From Syntrophales bacterium (GTDB lineage Bacteria > Desulfobacterota > Syntrophia > Syntrophales > UBA2185): 43,958 nt of DNA. Each line of letters begins with the position of its first letter. Positions within the stretch are counted from its first letter, which is position 1. Both the position numbers and the translations under genes were made by a program. The notes under the pieces are model-generated. The model did not search any database and was not told the origin of the DNA. It saw only the letters and a program-made list of their open reading frames with translations. The stretch covers positions 1 through 43,958 of the forward strand of contig DASPQI010000462.1 of assembly GCA_035625045.1 (NCBI GenBank), given 5' to 3'. Below are positions 14,453 through 18,839 of this stretch, piece after piece.

Positions 14453-14744
14453 TTATCTCTCTTCTTTATTAAAACTTCAAGACCTCGAATGATTCCTTTT
14501 TGTGCCTTATCATAAATCTTGCCCAGATCCCCGGCACTCATCTTAATTTTTTCAGTATATGCCGAACCGAGAATAAATACACATTATAATGTGCTTCTTA
14601 TTAATATATTCGACAAATTTAGTTAAAGCTTTAACCAAAACTTTCAATTAATGCCGTATTTTAAAATTCTTTTATCCAGGGTTACAAGTGCATTCTTTTT
14701 GCATAGGCTTCAAGGAAGCTATGACATTACATTGCCAAATTGTA

Positions 14745-14773
14745 TTGACATGCAGGACAGCCTTCCATATAAT
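14745..14773 (+). promoter_or_regulatory. Consensus sigma70 promoter
   Basis: TTGACA (14745-14750), exactly 17 nt, then TATAAT (14768-14773). It lies inside the track's N-terminal extension of the KS ORF, which supports the ATG at 14807. Confidence 0.7.
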
Positions 14774-14806
14774 TTCCGCACCTTAGAGGAAGTGCTCATC
14801 AAAGAC

Positions 14807-16054
14807 ATGCACAAGGAACGGGTCGTCATTACCGGACTGGGAACGATTAATGCGCTGGCGAAAAATACAGTTGACTTTGCTCATGCCCTGCAAGAGGGCA
14901 TTTGCGGCATCGGGCCCGTGACCCTGTTCGACACTGCAGATTATCGAACACATTGCGGGGCGGAGATCAAAGATTTCGCACCACAAGATATGATTCCACC
15001 CCGGTTTTCCTTGAAGCGGATGTCCAGAGCCGATTTAATGGCCTTTGCGGCGACCATCGAAGCGCTGACCGATGCGCGTCTCTTTCCGCTTCCCGATGCC
15101 CTCTGTGAAGATACAGGCGTAGTACTCGGCGCAGGTTCCGGGGGCAAACTGGAGGGAGAAGATTTTTACCTCAACTACCTCCGGCGGCATGGACGACATG
15201 CACGGTTTTCCAGGCTTGCCAGTGTCTGCCCCGCGGCCTCAGCAGATCACATCACTGAACATCTTGGCCTAAGGGGACCGAAGACCACCTTCATGACGGC
15301 CTGTTCGTCCGGGGCTACGGCCGTCGGATTTGCCCGCGATCTGATCGAAAGGCAAGCAGCTACTGTCATGATTGCAGGCGGCGTAGAGCCGCTTTGCAGA
15401 ACCACTTATGCCTCATTTAACGCCCTCCAGGCGGTTGATCCCGAATACTGCAAGCCTTTTGACAGAAACCGACAGGGTCTTTCCCTGGGCGAGGCCTCAG
15501 CGATCATTATCCTGGAATCATTGACTCATGCGAAAAAGAGAGGAGCAATAATCTATGGCGAAGTGCTGGGATACGGTATTACCTGCGATGCCTATCACAT
15601 GACAGCCCCGGATGTTAACGCCTCCGGCGCCGTTCGGTGCATGGAGGCGGCGTTGACGGACGCGGGCATTTCCGCTAACGCCGTCGATTATATCAACGCC
15701 CATGGGACCGGCACACCCGCCAACGATTCCATGGAAACCAAGGCACTGAAACAGGTCTTCGGAAAGGATGCCTACAGCATACCGATCAGTTCGACCAAAT
15801 CCATGACAGGGCATACACTGGGAGCGTCCGGCTCACTGGAGGCAATTGCATCCCTACTTGCAATAAGTAAAGGTTTCATCCCTCCCACTATTAATCATCG
15901 CGAGCCTGACCCGGAATGCGACCTCGATTATGTAACCACGGGCACCCGGCCGGTATCACCTGATATAGTTCTCTCCAATTCCTTCGCTTTCGGCGGAAAT
16001 AATACGACATTGATCCTGGGACGATATACAGAAAAGGGAATAATACATGAATAG
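14807..16054 (+). CDS. Beta-ketoacyl synthase (KAS II/FabF-like, catalytic triad intact)
   Basis: MHKERVVITGLG. Cys in TFMTACSSGATAVG, His in INAHGTGTPAND, His in SSTKSMTGHTLGASG, C-terminal SNSFAFGGNNTTL. Confidence 0.85.
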   Translation: MHKERVVITGLGTINALAKNTVDFAHALQEGICGIGPVTLFDTADYRTHCGAEIKDFAPQDMIPPRFSLKRMSRADLMAFAATIEALTDARLFPLPDALCEDTGVVLGAGSGGKLEGEDFYLNYLRRHGRHARFSRLASVCPAASADHITEHLGLRGPKTTFMTACSSGATAVGFARDLIERQAATVMIAGGVEPLCRTTYASFNALQAVDPEYCKPFDRNRQGLSLGEASAIIILESLTHAKKRGAIIYGEVLGYGITCDAYHMTAPDVNASGAVRCMEAALTDAGISANAVDYINAHGTGTPANDSMETKALKQVFGKDAYSIPISSTKSMTGHTLGASGSLEAIASLLAISKGFIPPTINHREPDPECDLDYVTTGTRPVSPDIVLSNSFAFGGNNTTLILGRYTEKGIIHE

Positions 16055-17276
16055 GCGTGTCGCTGTCACTGGGATTGGAGTGGTAACACCACTTGGAGTG
16101 GGGAAAGAATCCTTTGCACAGGCCATTTTCCGGGGTGACTCCGGCATTGCAGAGATCGCCGCTTTCGATACATCCCGCTTTGCCTCCCATCTGGGGGCGG
16201 AGATCAGAGATTTTTCGGCGCGTGATTTCATCTCTCTGAAGAATTTACGCAGGATGGACCGGTTGTCACAGATGGCTGTCGCATCGGCGCGGATGGCACT
16301 GAATGACGCAGGAATCTCCGTTAATACTGCGAACCGGGATCGCATCGGTACCATCCTGGGGACAGCCTTCGGACCGACGGATGTCAAGGTTCATTGTCTA
16401 AACATCCTCTTTACCGAAGGACCGGGTATGATCAATCCGATCCTGGTCCCTAATTCCATCATGAATGCACCGGCCAGCCATGCTGCTATCGAACTGGGGT
16501 TCAAAGGCGTGAATACCACGGTCAATCATCAGGCCGCTTCCGGAGAGACAGCGATTTTGTACGCGGCCATGGAGATTGAGCGGGGCGCCGCAGATATAGT
16601 CCTAGCGGGAGGGGCCGATATTCTCTCGGAGTTCTTCTTTGAAACGCTGGTCAGGTTCAGGGCGGTTTCCCCGGTTGACGGTAAAAAAGAATCCTCTCGT
16701 CCTTTTGACATCGGGCGGAACGGTCCTGTTGTCGGAGAAGGATGCGGGATCGTCTGCCTGGAGCTCCTGGAGCTTGCGGAAGAAAGAGGCAGAAAACCCT
16801 ATTGTGAGATCACAGGATGGGGAATGTCTTCTTCGCCTGCCAGCCCAACTGACTGGCCCAATGATGCGACAGGGATGAGTCTTGCCATGACCCGCGCGTT
16901 AAAATCTGCCAATCTGACGCCAGGTTACGTTGACATGATCCAGGCAGTAGGAAACGGCGGAAAAAATCCCGACGGCATCGAAGCCGATGCTTATCTTCAC
17001 CTTTTTGGATCTGAAAACAAAACACCCGCCGTGTCTTCAGTCAAAGGCGCCCTCGGCGAAAGTTTTTCTTCAGGAGGTATCCGGGCGGCCGCTCTGGCAT
17101 TATCAATAAGTAAGGGGATAGTCCCACCTACTCTGGGGCTTAAAAATCCCATCGCGCCTCTTTCTTTTGTAACCGGTAAGGCCAGGAATATGGACATCCG
17201 CAATGGTCTTGTCAATGCCGTCTCATATGGAGGAACGAACGTGTCAATAATCATGCGCAAGATCACGGCTTCGTAA
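16047..17276 (+). CDS. Ketosynthase-like protein lacking the Cys-His-His triad (chain-length-factor-like partner)
   Basis: KS fold motifs are present (VAVTGIGVVTPLG, AGGADI, NAVSYGGTNVSII). The catalytic positions read VNHQAASGE (Cys to Ala), MIQAVGNGG (His to Val) and SSVKGALGESFSSGG (His to Glu). The start overlaps the upstream KS stop by 8 nt. Confidence 0.8.
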   Translation: MNRRVAVTGIGVVTPLGVGKESFAQAIFRGDSGIAEIAAFDTSRFASHLGAEIRDFSARDFISLKNLRRMDRLSQMAVASARMALNDAGISVNTANRDRIGTILGTAFGPTDVKVHCLNILFTEGPGMINPILVPNSIMNAPASHAAIELGFKGVNTTVNHQAASGETAILYAAMEIERGAADIVLAGGADILSEFFFETLVRFRAVSPVDGKKESSRPFDIGRNGPVVGEGCGIVCLELLELAEERGRKPYCEITGWGMSSSPASPTDWPNDATGMSLAMTRALKSANLTPGYVDMIQAVGNGGKNPDGIEADAYLHLFGSENKTPAVSSVKGALGESFSSGGIRAAALALSISKGIVPPTLGLKNPIAPLSFVTGKARNMDIRNGLVNAVSYGGTNVSIIMRKITAS

Positions 17277-17312
17277 ATAACGTCTTCTAAAATAAATCTT
17301 GCAGGAGGTTAT

Positions 17313-18839
17313 ATGAATATCGGTGAGTGGATTTCCAAACGAGCGCTCCTCCACCCGGAAAAGCTTTTTTTAAAGGAAGAGGACGGCCGGGAATTCAATA
17401 ATGAAGAGTTTGACAGGCGCGTAAATCGCATGGCCCATGCCCTCAGTGAGTTGGGAATTGTCAAAGGTGAGCGGGTGGCAGTCCTGATGCTCAATTCCAG
17501 CGAGTTCCTGGAGATATTTTTTGCCTGCGGTAAAACAGGCGCGATCATGGTTCCCGTCAACTTCCGTCTCGCCGTACCGGAGCTGCTCTACATCCTCGGC
17601 GACTGCAACCCGCGGGTGCTGATCTATTCAACGGATTTTGCCGATAAGATCCGTGTGATTAAGGCTGCAGGTCTTCGCATCTCCCGTTATTTCCGGCACA
17701 GCGGAAATAACCTTCCCGATGATCCTTTAATAACAGATTTCGTCTCAAATTTTCCCGTAACCGAACCGGTGCCTGCGAGGGAGGTCACTCTGGATGATCC
17801 GCTTTTCATCATGTATACCTCAGGTACAACCGGCGACCCCAAAGGCGCCATGCTGTCGCACGGGAATATCCTGTTCGGAGCTATCCATTCCCTCATAGGA
17901 TACGGCGTTGATAAGACATACAAGTCGCTCGTTGTTGCGCCGCTGTTCCACATCGGGGCGCTGGCTGCCTCGGCAACGCCTGTAATATACGCCGGCGGTT
18001 CCCTTATTTTAAGGAGCTTTTACAATGCATCGGAGGCTATCAAATTAATCGTTCAGGAAAAAATCAACTATATGTTCACCGTACCGGTCATGTTCCAATT
18101 GATGACAAAATCTGAAGAATGGGATAATGCCGATTTCTCGCATGTTCATTTTTTCATATCCGGCGGCGCCCCTATCCCGATTCCGGTCATTCGCAAGTAT
18201 CAGGAGGATAAGGCTGTCGGTTTCGTACAGGGATATGGATTGACAGAGACGGGACGCCTGACCTCGCTTGATCTGGAGGATTCCATGCGGAAAGCGGGCT
18301 CCGTTGGCAAGGAGGTCTTTCACATTCAGCTGCGCATCGTCGATCAGCATGACATGGATGTTACTGCCGGAGAAGTAGGTGAAATCGTCGTCCGGGGTCC
18401 CAATGTTTTTATCTGCTATTGGAACAAACCACAGGAGACGGCAGAGGCTATGCGGGGCGGCTGGTTCCATACCGGTGATATGGGCAGGCGTGATGAAGAA
18501 GGCTTTATCTACGTTATCGGCAGAAAGCAGGAACTGATCATCAGTTCAGGAGAAAACATTTATCCGGCCGAGGTTGAAAGGGCTATTCAGACGCTCCCCC
18601 AGGTCAGGGAAGCCGCTGCCGTGGCCATGCCTGATCCCGCCCGGGGAGAGGTTGTGGCTGCCTTTGTTATACTGCATGAAGCACAGTTCTTAACGGAAGA
18701 GGAGCTGATCAATGCCCTTCAGGGACAGATTGCCAGTTTCAAGATACCGAAGAGGGTCTTTTTTGTGAATGACTTCCCCCGCAATACCACAGGCAAGATT
18801 CTGGTAAAGGAGTTAAAAAAACAACTGGCAAAAGGGTAA
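17313..18839 (+). CDS. AMP-dependent synthetase/ligase (acyl-CoA or acyl-ACP synthetase family)
   Basis: MYTSGTTGDPKGAM, QGYGLTET, WFHTGDMGRRDEEGFIYVIGRKQELIISSGENIYPAEVE, and a terminal GKILVKEL lysine. AGGAGG RBS. Confidence 0.9.
   Translation: MNIGEWISKRALLHPEKLFLKEEDGREFNNEEFDRRVNRMAHALSELGIVKGERVAVLMLNSSEFLEIFFACGKTGAIMVPVNFRLAVPELLYILGDCNPRVLIYSTDFADKIRVIKAAGLRISRYFRHSGNNLPDDPLITDFVSNFPVTEPVPAREVTLDDPLFIMYTSGTTGDPKGAMLSHGNILFGAIHSLIGYGVDKTYKSLVVAPLFHIGALAASATPVIYAGGSLILRSFYNASEAIKLIVQEKINYMFTVPVMFQLMTKSEEWDNADFSHVHFFISGGAPIPIPVIRKYQEDKAVGFVQGYGLTETGRLTSLDLEDSMRKAGSVGKEVFHIQLRIVDQHDMDVTAGEVGEIVVRGPNVFICYWNKPQETAEAMRGGWFHTGDMGRRDEEGFIYVIGRKQELIISSGENIYPAEVERAIQTLPQVREAAAVAMPDPARGEVVAAFVILHEAQFLTEEELINALQGQIASFKIPKRVFFVNDFPRNTTGKILVKELKKQLAKG

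What the first reader, a model, noticed from the sequence alone, without database searches (positions are those of the whole stretch)
14745..18839. Three-gene module behind a perfect sigma70 promoter: active ketosynthase, catalytically dead ketosynthase and adenylate-forming ligase, with no ACP or reductive genes
KS1 keeps the Cys-His-His triad. KS2 overlaps it by 8 nt and has Ala/Val/Glu at the three positions (HQAASG, AVGNGG, GALGES), like the chain-length-factor or KS-beta partners of type II PKS and aryl-polyene systems. The ligase could load a starter acid. No ACP, ketoreductase, dehydratase or thioesterase gene is present. The next gene is a convergent TauE permease. The module must therefore borrow housekeeping FAS components, or make a very simple product (one condensation on an activated acid). 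The promoter is an exact TTGACA-17-TATAAT, which is unusual for a secondary-metabolite locus.
Basis: partly seen in the sequence, partly recalled or inferred. Interest (0 to 1): 0.6.

Follow-up and report, generated by a model that had tools for sequence, protein, structure and literature searches.

The report
Detached ketosynthase pair plus CoA ligase
A working chain-extending enzyme, its permanently inactive twin and an acid-activating ligase form a small operon that has moved away from a large aryl-polyene/flexirubin-like lipid gene cluster found elsewhere in this Syntrophales genome, so it is a relocated part of a known kind of pathway and not a stand-alone mini-pathway.

Summary
Behind an exact TTGACA-17-TATAAT promoter lie KS1 (Cys-His-His intact; true start 14807), KS2 (Ala/Val/Glu at the triad, 8-nt overlap with KS1) and a 508-aa acyl-CoA-synthetase-type ligase.

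KS2 belongs to a large, conserved family of dead partners. At the triad positions of 121 members there is no Cys and no His, and Glu is invariant at the second His position. In the tree KS2 groups with amxFabFmut, the inactive subunit of the anammox heterodimer solved in 2026 (PDB 9S5H). One genus has KS1 and KS2 fused into a single 852-aa protein, predicted to fold like a solved single-chain KS-CLF.

The "missing" genes are not missing. ACPs, ketoreductase, ApeP-like dehydratase, thioesterase, LolA, a fused MMPL-methyltransferase, GT2, B12 radical-SAM enzymes and a StlD/DarB-family ketosynthase sit on other contigs. In other Syntrophales families they are contiguous with the pair, usually together with an aromatic amino-acid lyase. 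Of 66 KS2-positive genomes, 65 have the MMPL-methyltransferase and 58 have the lyase.

The trio is therefore a satellite of an aryl-polyene/flexirubin-like pathway. The ligase's substrate is unresolved. This scan has already found the same kind of pair on other DNA. Verdict: new member of a known kind, moderate-to-low interest.

The parts
14745..14773 (+). Sigma-70-type promoter: -35 TTGACA (14745-14750), 17-nt spacer, -10 TATAAT (14768-14773)
   Evidence: Read directly. It is the only exact match in the window, with 0 of 100 shuffles giving any, and the only 12/12 site in the scan. It is conserved as TTGACA-17-TATA(A/G/C)T, with CTTCC before the -10, upstream of KS1 in G149, G141, G065, G080, G063, G143 and G059.
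14807..16054 (+). KS1: active FabF-like ketosynthase, 415 aa (corrected start; the ORF listed from 14651 is over-extended)
   Evidence: Pfam ketoacyl-synt N and C domains. NCBIfam: PRK07314 subfamily 416 bits (cut-off 387), but below the fabF equivalog cut-off (417 against 494). Cys/His/Lys/His intact. Start set by the orthologue N-termini and by the promoter position.
16047..17276 (+). KS2: catalytically dead KS partner, 409 aa; its ATG overlaps the end of KS1 by 8 nt
   Evidence: Triad reads Ala/Val/Glu in alignments to FabF structures. In 121 family members there is no Cys or His at the three positions, Glu is present in 121 of 121 at His2, and Lys is kept in 118 of 121. It falls in one clade with amxFabFmut. 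It is fused to KS1 in G024 and G075.
17313..18839 (+). Acyl-CoA-synthetase-type adenylate-forming ligase, 508 aa
   Evidence: AMP-binding plus AMP-binding_C. Best NCBIfam hit is long-chain-fatty-acid--CoA ligase PRK06187, 461 bits against a cut-off of 476. Closest solved structures are a fatty-acyl-CoA synthase / feruloyl-CoA synthetase (8WEU/8WEV, 353 bits) and FadD13 (307 bits), aligned over the full length with no long insertion. Orthologues (63% identity or more) directly follow KS2 in 22 of 29 loci.

Best explanation
KS1 and KS2 most likely form an obligate heterodimeric ketosynthase. KS1 carries out the decarboxylative condensation of an acyl thioester with malonyl-ACP. KS2, which cannot do chemistry, supplies the other half of the dimer: part of the substrate tunnel and of the carrier-protein docking surface, acting as a chain-length or substrate-selecting factor.

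The pair is the elongating ketosynthase of an aryl-polyene/flexirubin-like envelope-lipid pathway. The other genes of that pathway lie on other contigs of this genome: carrier proteins, ketoreductase, ApeP-like dehydratase, thioesterase, a second ApeH-like ligase, a DarB-family ketosynthase, B12 radical-SAM enzymes, a CrtI-like oxidoreductase, GT2, LolA and a fused MMPL-methyltransferase. The lipid-A-type acyltransferase (LPLAT) and the MIO-type aromatic amino-acid lyase of the pathway were seen only in relatives. No orthologue of either was detected in this 88%-complete assembly.

In this lineage the pair and its ligase have been moved to a separate site and are transcribed from their own consensus sigma-70 promoter. 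The ligase makes a CoA thioester. My first choice (about 45%) is that it activates the starter acid, for example a lyase-derived aryl-acrylate, as FlxA/FlxY do in flexirubin synthesis. The second choice (about 35%) is that it supplies a fatty acyl-CoA for the lipid-anchor acyltransferase.

Shown here: sequence features, conservation, synteny, co-occurrence, the natural fusion and its predicted fold. Inferred: the physical heterodimer, the substrates and the product.
For: Dead but conserved partner:
- Triad substitutions in KS2.
- Family-wide loss of Cys and His, with invariant Glu and retained Lys.
- Single copy per genome.
- KS1 directly upstream in 29 of 29 loci.

Heterodimer:
- The 8-nt start/stop overlap.
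- A natural KS1-linker-KS2 fusion in G024 (852 aa) and a second one (P0124, 850 aa, 80% identical; apparently G075, where the open frame around KS2 is 863 aa).
- The AlphaFold model of the fusion has pLDDT 91.9 and pTM 0.94, with only the linker disordered.
- Its best PDB match over both halves is the single-chain PfaC KS-CLF 6RIW (TM 0.76).
- KS2 groups with amxFabFmut (99/97; 87/88), whose heterodimer with amxFabF2 was shown biochemically and by crystallography (bioRxiv 10.64898/2026.05.19.726425).
- Active and partner halves form two parallel clades (98/97 and 100/98).

Belonging to a larger pathway:
- The trio is embedded in G057 between GT2 and MMPL-methyltransferase, with ApeP, KR, LolA, B12 radical-SAM and 4HBT upstream.
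- In the synteny map of 43 loci, 25 have at least one gene of the larger pathway (B12 radical-SAM, aromatic lyase, KR, LolA, ApeP, CrtI-like oxidoreductase, GT2 or MMPL-methyltransferase) within 10 kb of the pair; 15 of them have the lyase.
- The own genome holds the remaining genes on C443, C402, C293, C182 and C139, and there GT2 directly abuts MMPL-methyltransferase.
- In 201 Syntrophales genomes, MMPL-methyltransferase is present in 65 of 66 KS2-positive and 17 of 135 KS2-negative genomes. The aromatic lyase is present in 58 of 66 and 11 of 135.
- The DarB/StlD-family KS scores above its cut-off (536.6 against 450).
- The flexirubin precedent for lyase plus CoA ligase plus type II FAS-like polyene synthesis plus LolA, acyltransferase, GT and exporter is PMC3992019.

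Ligase:
- It is of the CoA-synthetase type, with a full-length match to FadD13 and a feruloyl-CoA synthetase.
- It is followed by an acyl-CoA dehydrogenase or an enoyl-CoA hydratase in many relatives, which argues for a CoA-bound product.
Against: - No experiment bears on this protein pair, and the product of the large cluster is unknown.
- KS1 is not clearly orthologous to amxFabF2 (unresolved). Neither KS1 nor KS2 is close to ApeO or ApeC: 7F28 and 6QSP are absent from the 60 best PDB hits, whereas ApeR-type 7F27 and 4EWG are there.
- The gene order (active, then dead) is the reverse of the anammox order.
- The aromatic lyase was not found in this 88%-complete assembly. In the same-genus genome it sits exactly where contig C443 breaks off.
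- The ligase is not universal. It is missing next to the pair in 7 of 29 loci.
- About 5 KS2-negative genomes carry a ligase orthologue. In two of them (G146, G137) it lies beside MMPL-methyltransferase.
- The main cluster has its own ApeH-like ligase with a weak 4-coumarate-CoA-ligase resemblance. The starter-activation role for the trio's ligase is therefore uncertain.
- Co-occurrence among relatives overstates independence.
- Grouping of fast-evolving dead subunits in a tree may partly be long-branch attraction.
Confidence: 0.65

Rival explanations
1. One reading: the trio is an autonomous minimal module. The ligase activates an acid, the KS pair performs one or a few condensations using housekeeping AcpP and FAS enzymes, and the product is simple.
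For: The trio has its own strong promoter and is flanked by unrelated genes, and this site is conserved in G149 and G141. The solitary trio, with or without an acyl-CoA dehydrogenase, is a stable unit in several families and at different sites. A housekeeping acpP-fabF locus exists on C67.
Against: 65 of 66 KS2-positive genomes also carry the MMPL-methyltransferase cluster. In 25 of the 43 mapped loci the pair has at least one gene of that pathway within 10 kb. The own genome has dedicated ACP, KR, DH and TE genes.
Confidence: 0.12
2. Precursor supply for the DarB/StlD-type ketosynthase. KS1/KS2 makes a beta-ketoacyl thioester and the ligase, with the acyl-CoA dehydrogenase of relatives, makes a 2-enoyl-CoA. 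These are the two substrates that DarB condenses into a dialkylresorcinol.
For: A StlD/DarB-family KS scoring above its cut-off is present in this genome. A module made of a KS pair without reductive enzymes, a ligase, and an ACAD or ECH would give exactly those two substrate types. The DarB mechanism is from my own knowledge of Fuchs et al. 2013, which I did not read here.
Against: DarB-like genes are present in only 26 of 66 KS2-positive genomes, and in 10 KS2-negative ones. Complete genomes with trio plus ACAD, such as G059 and G099, lack DarB.
Confidence: 0.08
3. The ligase is not a partner of the KS pair at all. It serves the lipid-anchor part of the pathway by supplying acyl-CoA to the LpxL-like acyltransferase, and sits next to the pair only by operon history.
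For: Ligase orthologues lie directly beside MMPL-methyltransferase and the acyltransferase in G057, G039, G146 and G137. Some KS2-negative genomes keep the ligase. The pair occurs without the ligase in 7 of 29 loci. The closest solved relatives include fatty-acyl-CoA synthetases.
Against: Where the pair is detached from the cluster, the ligase travels with the pair and not with MMPL-methyltransferase (window, G149, G080, G141, G024, G059, G099).
Confidence: 0.3
4. KS2 is a decaying pseudo-enzyme without function, and KS1 works as an ordinary homodimeric FabF paralogue.
For: KS1 is FabF-like (342 bits to Synechocystis KAS II) and passes a FabF subfamily model.
Against: KS2 is full length and single copy, is conserved at 58-93% identity across more than 100 clusters with an invariant Glu and Lys, is always coupled to KS1, and is fused to it in one genus.
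Confidence: 0.03

Closest known systems
amxFabF2/amxFabFmut heterodimer of anammox 'Cluster I' (KustE3605/3606; PDB 9S5H/9S5I; Granatino et al. 2026, bioRxiv 10.64898/2026.05.19.726425)
   Same: An active FabF-like KS is paired with a triad-dead FabF-like partner. The dead partner has Glu at the second His position and a shared EGP..NP...PN(S/T) helix-loop-helix motif. 9S5H chains are among the best PDB sequence matches of KS2. KS2 and amxFabFmut group in the tree. In relatives, a CrtI-like oxidoreductase and B12 radical-SAM genes are neighbours.
   Different: The gene order is reversed (active first here). KS1 is not clearly an orthologue of amxFabF2. The nucleophile position is Ala, not Val or Thr. 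The host is a Syntrophales anaerobe with no known ladderanes. The surrounding pathway has a lyase, LolA, MMPL, GT2 and DarB-type genes. A CoA ligase is attached.
ApeO/ApeC KS-chain-length-factor heterodimer of aryl-polyene (APE) clusters (PDB 6QSP, 7F28; PMC8358021)
   Same: The logic is the same: an active KS and an inactive partner within a type II FAS-like cluster that also has an AMP-ligase, ACPs, KR, ApeP-type DH, thioesterase, LolA-like protein, MMPL exporter, acyltransferase, GT and methyltransferase.
   Different: There is no close sequence relationship. ApeO and ApeC are not among the 60 best PDB matches of KS1 or KS2. B12 radical-SAM enzymes, a MIO lyase and a Dak2-DegV protein are extra here. 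In this genome the pair is unlinked from the cluster.
Flexirubin pathway of Bacteroidota (FlxA tyrosine ammonia-lyase, FlxY 4-coumarate-CoA ligase, several KS, DarA/DarB; PMC3992019)
   Same: A MIO-type lyase, a CoA ligase, several type II ketosynthases, a DarB-family KS, LolA, an acyltransferase, a GT and an exporter occur in one pathway.
   Different: The lyase scores below every curated cut-off, so its substrate is unknown (HAL 424 against 524; FlxA model 314 against 700). DarB is present in only 26 of 66 KS2-positive genomes. I could not establish whether the trio's ligase corresponds to FlxY.
Type II PKS KS-alpha/KS-beta (actinorhodin 1TQY; ishigamide Iga11/Iga12 6KXD)
   Same: A heterodimer of an active KS and an inactive KS, encoded by adjacent coupled genes. 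These are lower-ranking PDB matches.
   Different: The classical actinorhodin-type CLF carries Gln at the Cys position for decarboxylative priming. KS2 has Ala there, with Gln one residue upstream. No cyclases or aromatases of aromatic polyketide clusters were seen.
PfaC KS-CLF didomain of PUFA synthase (PDB 6RIW)
   Same: It is the best whole-length structural match of the natural KS1-KS2 fusion model, so the two halves pack as a pseudo-dimer in one chain.
   Different: Sequence identity is only 16%. PfaC is part of a multidomain megasynthase, whereas the proteins here are free-standing or a simple two-domain fusion.

Membership tests
KS/chain-length-factor-type heterodimer (functional class) | One subunit has the intact Cys-His-His triad | tested here: met
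   KS1 has TACSSG, NAHGTGT and TGHTLG.
KS/chain-length-factor-type heterodimer (functional class) | The partner subunit lacks the nucleophilic Cys but keeps the fold and is conserved | tested here: met
   KS2 has Ala/Val/Glu and matches FabF over its full length with E 1e-71 to 1e-62. In 121 homologues there is no Cys or His at these positions.
KS/chain-length-factor-type heterodimer (functional class) | Adjacent, co-transcribed genes | tested here: met
   8-nt overlap in the window. KS1 is directly upstream of KS2 in 29 of 29 loci.
KS/chain-length-factor-type heterodimer (functional class) | The two subunits form a physical heterodimer | not testable with these tools
   Indirect support only: the natural fusion; the fusion model with pTM 0.94 that matches the single-chain KS-CLF 6RIW; and parallel clades of active and partner halves. 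A charge-asymmetry check of the helix-loop-helix segments was inconclusive.
Actinorhodin-type CLF (KS-beta) | Gln at the position of the catalytic Cys | tested here: not met
   That position is Ala in KS2, and A101/E10/G7/S2/V1 across the family.
amxFabF2/amxFabFmut family | The dead subunit is related to amxFabFmut | tested here: met
   Clade support 99/97 (24 sequences) and 87/88 (34 sequences). Both have Glu at the second His position. Long-branch attraction is not excluded.
amxFabF2/amxFabFmut family | The active subunit is orthologous to amxFabF2 | tested here: inconclusive
   The position of amxFabF2 is unresolved. KS1 groups with the KS domain of the own C293 protein and with the N-halves of KS-KS fusions.
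amxFabF2/amxFabFmut family | Gene order (mut upstream of F2) and Cluster I context (amxACP, amxFabZ, phytoene-dehydrogenase-like, B12 radical-SAM) | tested here: not met
   The order here is active then dead, and no such genes lie in the window. A CrtI-like oxidoreductase, an ACP and B12 radical-SAM genes are elsewhere in the genome (C293) and lie next to the pair in some relatives.
ApeO/ApeC (aryl-polyene KS/CLF) | Sequence membership in the ApeO and ApeC families | tested here: not met
   7F28 and 6QSP chains are not among the 60 best PDB matches of KS1 or KS2, whereas canonical FabF, amxFabF and ApeR (7F27, 4EWG) are.
APE/flexirubin-type gene cluster | The accessory set is present in the genome: AMP-ligase, ACP, KR, ApeP-type DH, thioesterase, LolA, MMPL exporter, acyltransferase, GT | tested here: met
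   Own genome: C443 carries the ApeH-like ligase, ApeP, KR, LolA and B12 radical-SAM enzymes. C402 carries 4HBT, a FabH-like protein, GT2 and MMPL-methyltransferase. C293, C182 and C139 carry ACPs. No clear acyltransferase orthologue was found in the own assembly (best tblastn hit 22% identity); it is seen in the same-genus genome G149. These genes are linked to the pair in other families.
Flexirubin-type pathway | Tyrosine ammonia-lyase (FlxA) and a DarB dialkylresorcinol ketosynthase | tested here: inconclusive
   A MIO lyase is present in 58 of 66 KS2-positive genomes but scores below all curated cut-offs, and it was not found in the own assembly. The DarB/StlD subfamily model is passed (536.6 against 450) but not the DarB-specific one (451 against 550). 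DarB is present in only 26 of 66 KS2-positive genomes.
FabF (TIGR03150 equivalog, housekeeping KAS II) | Score above the curated cut-off of 493.75 | tested here: not met
   KS1 scores 416.7 and KS2 319.4. The housekeeping acpP-fabF pair is on contig C67.
Fatty acyl-AMP ligase (FAAL, loads ACP directly) | FAAL-specific insertion and larger size | tested here: not met
   The protein is 508 aa and aligns end to end (residues 2-504) with CoA-forming enzymes of 491-517 aa: 8WEV, FadD13, MatB and MenE. The A3, A5, A7, A8 and A10 motifs are all present (read from the translation).

The most novel reading that the evidence does not exclude
The trio, together with the acyl-CoA dehydrogenase or enoyl-CoA hydratase that follows it in relatives, is a starter-salvage and priming module. 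The ligase captures a free acid (lyase-derived or taken from the environment, for example an aryl-propionate or aryl-acrylate). The dehydrogenase makes the 2-enoyl-CoA. The KS1/KS2 heterodimer then accepts this CoA-bound primer directly. That priming mode has not been shown for KS/CLF pairs, and in it the invariant Glu of the dead subunit would have a real role.
Probability: 0.15. Interest if true: 0.55.

Novelty: new member of a known kind. Interest (0 to 1): 0.35.

Why it matters
It shows that the inactive-partner ketosynthase recently solved from anammox bacteria is not peculiar to ladderane producers. It belongs to a broad family of KS/partner pairs, including single-chain fusions, that serve aryl-polyene/flexirubin-like lipid clusters in strictly anaerobic Syntrophales. 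That bears on how the anammox 'ladderane' cluster should be read. It also gives a compact, promoter-defined three-gene unit, and a natural fusion, for testing how a dead subunit shapes ketosynthase specificity. For annotation, it warns against calling such detached pairs 'orphan' pathways.

Tried and rejected
1. DarB precursor-supply idea. Rejected as a general explanation, because DarB is present in only 26 of 66 KS2-positive genomes.
2. Apparent 918-aa ligase-ACAD fusion in genus g22. It is only an upstream stop-free stretch in a GC-rich genome; the ligase ends with a stop and the ACAD starts right after it.
3. Electrostatic-asymmetry test taken from the anammox paper. Simple net charge of the helix-loop-helix and facing-helix segments does not separate even the anammox subunits, so it is uninformative.
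4. The scan of genome contigs with KS2 returned only one locus, the same-genus MAG. Synteny had to be built from the genome search and the fetch from genomes.
5. Paper searches for '9S5H', '8WEV' and 'ketosynthase heterodimer Syntrophus' found nothing.
7. Aromatic lyase in the own genome. Not found by the genome search or local tblastn.
8. The 93-aa ORF on C402 looks ACP-like (DSM motif) but matched no Pfam family and is not among the genome's PP-binding matches. It is therefore left unconfirmed.
9. Ladderane-type product. No evidence, and the host lineage and the cluster content (lyase, LolA, MMPL, GT2, DarB) point elsewhere.

Full report
WHAT IS THERE. The window is contig C462 of a 3.09-Mb, 475-contig, 88%-complete MAG. 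Its nearest public relative is a Syntrophales MAG with 93% identity in KS2.

- KS1 is listed from 14651, but the promoter lies inside that ORF and orthologues start MH(K/R)ERVVITGLG. The real gene is therefore 14807-16054, 415 aa.
- KS2 is 16047-17276. Its ATG overlaps the end of KS1 by 8 nt.
- The ligase is 17313-18839.

Pfam finds both ketoacyl-synthase domains in KS1 and KS2, and AMP-binding plus AMP-binding_C in the ligase. KS1 passes the PRK07314 FabF subfamily model but not the fabF equivalog. KS2 passes neither.

In HMMER alignments to solved FabFs, KS1 keeps Cys, His, Lys and His. KS2 reads Ala, Val, (Lys kept), Glu.

TTGACA-17-TATAAT at 14745-14773 is exact. It is unique in the window and was never seen in 100 shuffles. 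Downstream, a TauE gene converges with only 7 nt between the stops. Upstream lies a divergent YLATT membrane protein.

THE DEAD PARTNER IS A CONSERVED FAMILY. KS2 has hundreds of relatives. The best 120 are 58-93% identical and come mostly from Syntrophales and Desulfobacterales metagenomes, including Syntrophus gentianae.

In 121 members the three catalytic positions never hold Cys or His:

- The nucleophile position is A101/E10/G7/S2/V1.
- The first His position is mostly Ala.
- The second His position is Glu in 121 of 121.
- The structural Lys is kept in 118 of 121.

KS2 is the only triad-dead KS among the 9 full-length KS-like genes checked in this genome (a tenth, on C182, is cut off by the contig end).

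In a sample of 201 Syntrophales genomes an orthologue (E at most 1e-100) is present in 66, covering 25 of 65 genera, always as a single copy. In 401 genomes of the phylum it is present in 22.

HETERODIMER. The best PDB sequence matches of KS2 include both chains of 9S5H. I read the paper behind that entry (Granatino et al. 2026, bioRxiv 10.64898/2026.05.19.726425). It reports the following:

- amxFabF2 and the triad-dead amxFabFmut of the anammox 'Cluster I' are inactive alone.
- They co-purify and together decarboxylate malonyl-ACP.
- They crystallise as a KS/CLF-like heterodimer, and residues of the dead subunit shape chain-length preference.

amxFabFmut also has Glu at the second His position and shares with KS2 the EGP..NP...PN(S/T) helix-loop-helix motif.

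In maximum-likelihood trees the KS2 family groups with amxFabFmut (99/97 with 24 sequences; 87/88 with 34 sequences). With the C-terminal halves of roughly 800-aa KS-KS fusion proteins it forms one 'partner' clade (100/98). KS1, the KS domain of the own C293 protein and the N-terminal halves of those fusions form a parallel 'active' clade (98/97). amxFabF2 itself is unresolved. Long-branch attraction of dead subunits cannot be excluded, but the parallel topology argues for an old co-evolving pair.

Independent support comes from one genus (G024, G075), where KS1 and KS2 are a single ORF of 852 or 850 aa with a linker of about 30 residues. The AlphaFold model of that fusion has mean pLDDT 91.9 and pTM 0.94, and only the linker is disordered. 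Its best whole-length PDB match is the single-chain PfaC KS-CLF didomain 6RIW, with TM 0.76 over both halves.

THE 'MISSING' GENES. In G057 (a 704-kb contig) the trio sits inside a long same-strand array: ApeP-like dehydratase, SDR ketoreductase, LolA, an unknown gene, a B12-binding radical-SAM enzyme, a 4HBT thioesterase, Dak2-DegV, GT2, M24, DinB, KS1, KS2, ligase, an MMPL-methyltransferase fusion and a lipid-A-type acyltransferase. A divergent ABC transporter-ACP-KS operon lies upstream.

tblastn of these proteins against the own genome finds them on other contigs:

- C443: KR 74%, LolA 49%, the unknown gene 42%, B12 radical-SAM 80% (cut off by the contig end), plus an ApeH-like AMP-ligase, an ApeP-like DH and a second B12 radical-SAM enzyme.
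- C402: 4HBT 69%, a FabH-like protein, a small ACP-like ORF, GT2 65% and MMPL-methyltransferase 61%.
- No orthologue of the acyltransferase (best hit 22% identity), of Dak2-DegV or of DinB was detected in the own assembly. The only M24 hit lies on C243, unlinked to any cluster gene.

In the own genome GT2 directly abuts MMPL-methyltransferase. That is the place where the trio sits in G057, so the trio has been moved.

ACPs scoring above the Pfam cut-off are on C67 (housekeeping, beside fabF), C293, C182, C139, C387, C422 and C442.

The same-genus genome G149, which is 98% complete, shows how the pieces join. One contig carries ApeH-like ligase / ApeP, KR, LolA, the unknown gene, B12 radical-SAM, aromatic lyase and Dak2-DegV. 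Another carries 4HBT, FabH-like, ACP-like, GT2, MMPL-methyltransferase, acyltransferase ... ACP, the KS-fusion protein, the CrtI-like oxidoreductase and a radical-SAM enzyme, and then three more KS genes. The trio is on a third contig of 107 kb.

The C443 380-aa protein passes the StlD/DarB-family ketosynthase model (536.6 against a cut-off of 450).

SYNTENY AND CO-OCCURRENCE. I mapped 29 reference proteins onto 43 loci of up to 20 kb around KS2. The recurrent orders are:

- KS1>KS2>(ligase>(ACAD>))B12 radical-SAM>aromatic lyase>4HBT>Dak2-DegV>GT2>MMPL-methyltransferase.
- ApeP>ACAD>CrtI-like>KS>KS1>KS2>ligase>KR>LolA>unknown>B12 radical-SAM>lyase.
- acyltransferase<MMPL-methyltransferase<|KS1>KS2>ligase.
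- ApeH-like ligase>KS1>KS2>ligase>enoyl-CoA hydratase, with the lyase, an ABC transporter, an ACP and a KS beside it (G070, G055).
- The solitary trio, with or without ACAD (own family, G024, Syntrophus-type genomes).

Counts in the 201-genome sample:

| Gene | In KS2-positive (of 66) | In KS2-negative (of 135) |
|---|---|---|
| MMPL-methyltransferase | 65 | 17 |
| Aromatic lyase | 58 | 11 |
| DarB-like KS | 26 | 10 |
| Ligase orthologue | about 50 | about 5 |

These genomes are related to one another, so the numbers overstate independence. The pattern is nevertheless clear: the pair depends on the MMPL/LolA/lyase cluster, and not on DarB.

The lyase is a MIO enzyme that scores below all curated cut-offs (HAL 424 against 524, BagA-type TAL 400, FlxA 314). 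It was not found in the own assembly. In G149 it follows exactly the gene at which the own contig C443 breaks off. G198, of the same genus, lacks KS2 and has the lyase in four frame-broken pieces.

THE LIGASE. It has all the ANL core motifs (read from the translation). It aligns end to end with CoA-forming enzymes: 8WEU/8WEV (fatty-acyl-CoA synthase / feruloyl-CoA synthetase, 353 bits), FadD13 (307 bits), MatB and MenE. It has no FAAL-type insertion. In relatives it is followed by an acyl-CoA dehydrogenase (best model acryloyl-CoA reductase AcrC, below its cut-off) or by a crotonase, both of which act on CoA thioesters. I could not decide its substrate.

For starter activation:
- The flexirubin precedent of TAL plus CoA ligase (PMC3992019).
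- The ligase travels with the pair when the pair is detached.

Against starter activation:
- The main cluster has its own ApeH-like ligase with a weak 4-coumarate-CoA-ligase resemblance.
- The trio's ligase is absent next to the pair in 7 of 29 loci.
- It sometimes sits beside MMPL-methyltransferase in KS2-negative genomes.

PROMOTER AND SITE. The TTGACA-17-TATA(A/G/C)T element, with CTTCC just before the -10, recurs upstream of KS1 in seven genomes of four families where the module starts an operon. Where another gene precedes KS1 (G055, G070) it is absent. The insertion site between cdaA-YLATT and the GGDEF gene is shared with G149 and G141. TauE is there only within the genus. No intrinsic terminator follows the ligase.

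VERDICT. The CLF/aryl-polyene analogy is right at the level of mechanism. The closest characterised relative is the anammox amxFabF2/amxFabFmut heterodimer. The pair is not a member of the ApeO/ApeC families, and KS2 is not an actinorhodin-type CLF because it has no Gln at the Cys position. The conclusion that the module is self-sufficient or must borrow housekeeping FAS parts is not supported. It is a relocated part of an aryl-polyene/flexirubin-like lipid pathway that is widespread in Syntrophales.

Earlier notes of this scan reached a similar reading on other genomes. I re-tested it here on this genome. What I add: the natural fusion with its model, the lyase and DarB links with co-occurrence counts, the promoter conservation, and the rejection of two tempting ideas (DarB precursor supply and a ligase-ACAD fusion).

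Noticed in passing
window 14651-14806: The long ORF that a mechanical ORF call gives for KS1 starts 156 nt too early. It runs through the promoter and would add 52 spurious residues.
   Followed up: yes
window 14623-14634: A perfect 12-nt palindrome TTAAAGCTTTAA lies about 110 nt upstream of the -35 hexamer in the AT-rich divergent intergenic region. It is identical in the same-genus genome G149, and could be an operator for either divergent gene.
   Followed up: no
L026 169-2727 (G024) and P0124: Natural single-chain KS1-linker-KS2 fusion (852 and 850 aa). A much larger set of roughly 800-830-aa KS-KS fusion proteins (35-39% identical over the full length) exists in Streptomyces, Kribbella, Nocardia, Brevibacillus, Clostridium and Acidobacteria. 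Their two halves fall in the same 'active' and 'partner' clades.
   Followed up: partly
own genome contig C293:1910-4126: A 738-aa protein has an active KS domain followed by a truncated KS-like domain of about 310 aa (weak FabF N-terminal match). It is flanked by an ACP, a CrtI/CrtD-like FAD oxidoreductase and a B12 radical-SAM gene, an arrangement reminiscent of anammox Cluster I.
   Followed up: partly
own genome contig C443:5385-7939: A StlD/DarB-family ketosynthase (dialkylresorcinol/stilbene type) lies directly next to a B12-binding radical-SAM enzyme in a strict anaerobe. No DarA-type aromatase was looked for.
   Followed up: partly
G198:C5:82346-83686 (same genus): The genome that lacks KS2 has the cluster's aromatic lyase split into four pieces in different frames. 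This looks like decay of the pathway in that strain, or assembly errors.
   Followed up: no
own genome contig C387: A separate KS-ACP set is embedded among biotin genes (BioF-, BioD- and BioA-like ORFs). It is probably a pimeloyl-ACP route and unrelated to the finding.
   Followed up: no
L010 12041-13445, L065, L081-L083, L086: Two to three small conserved ORFs (130, 150 and 132 aa) without Pfam hits follow the ligase or ACAD in several families. They may be further members of the module.
   Followed up: no
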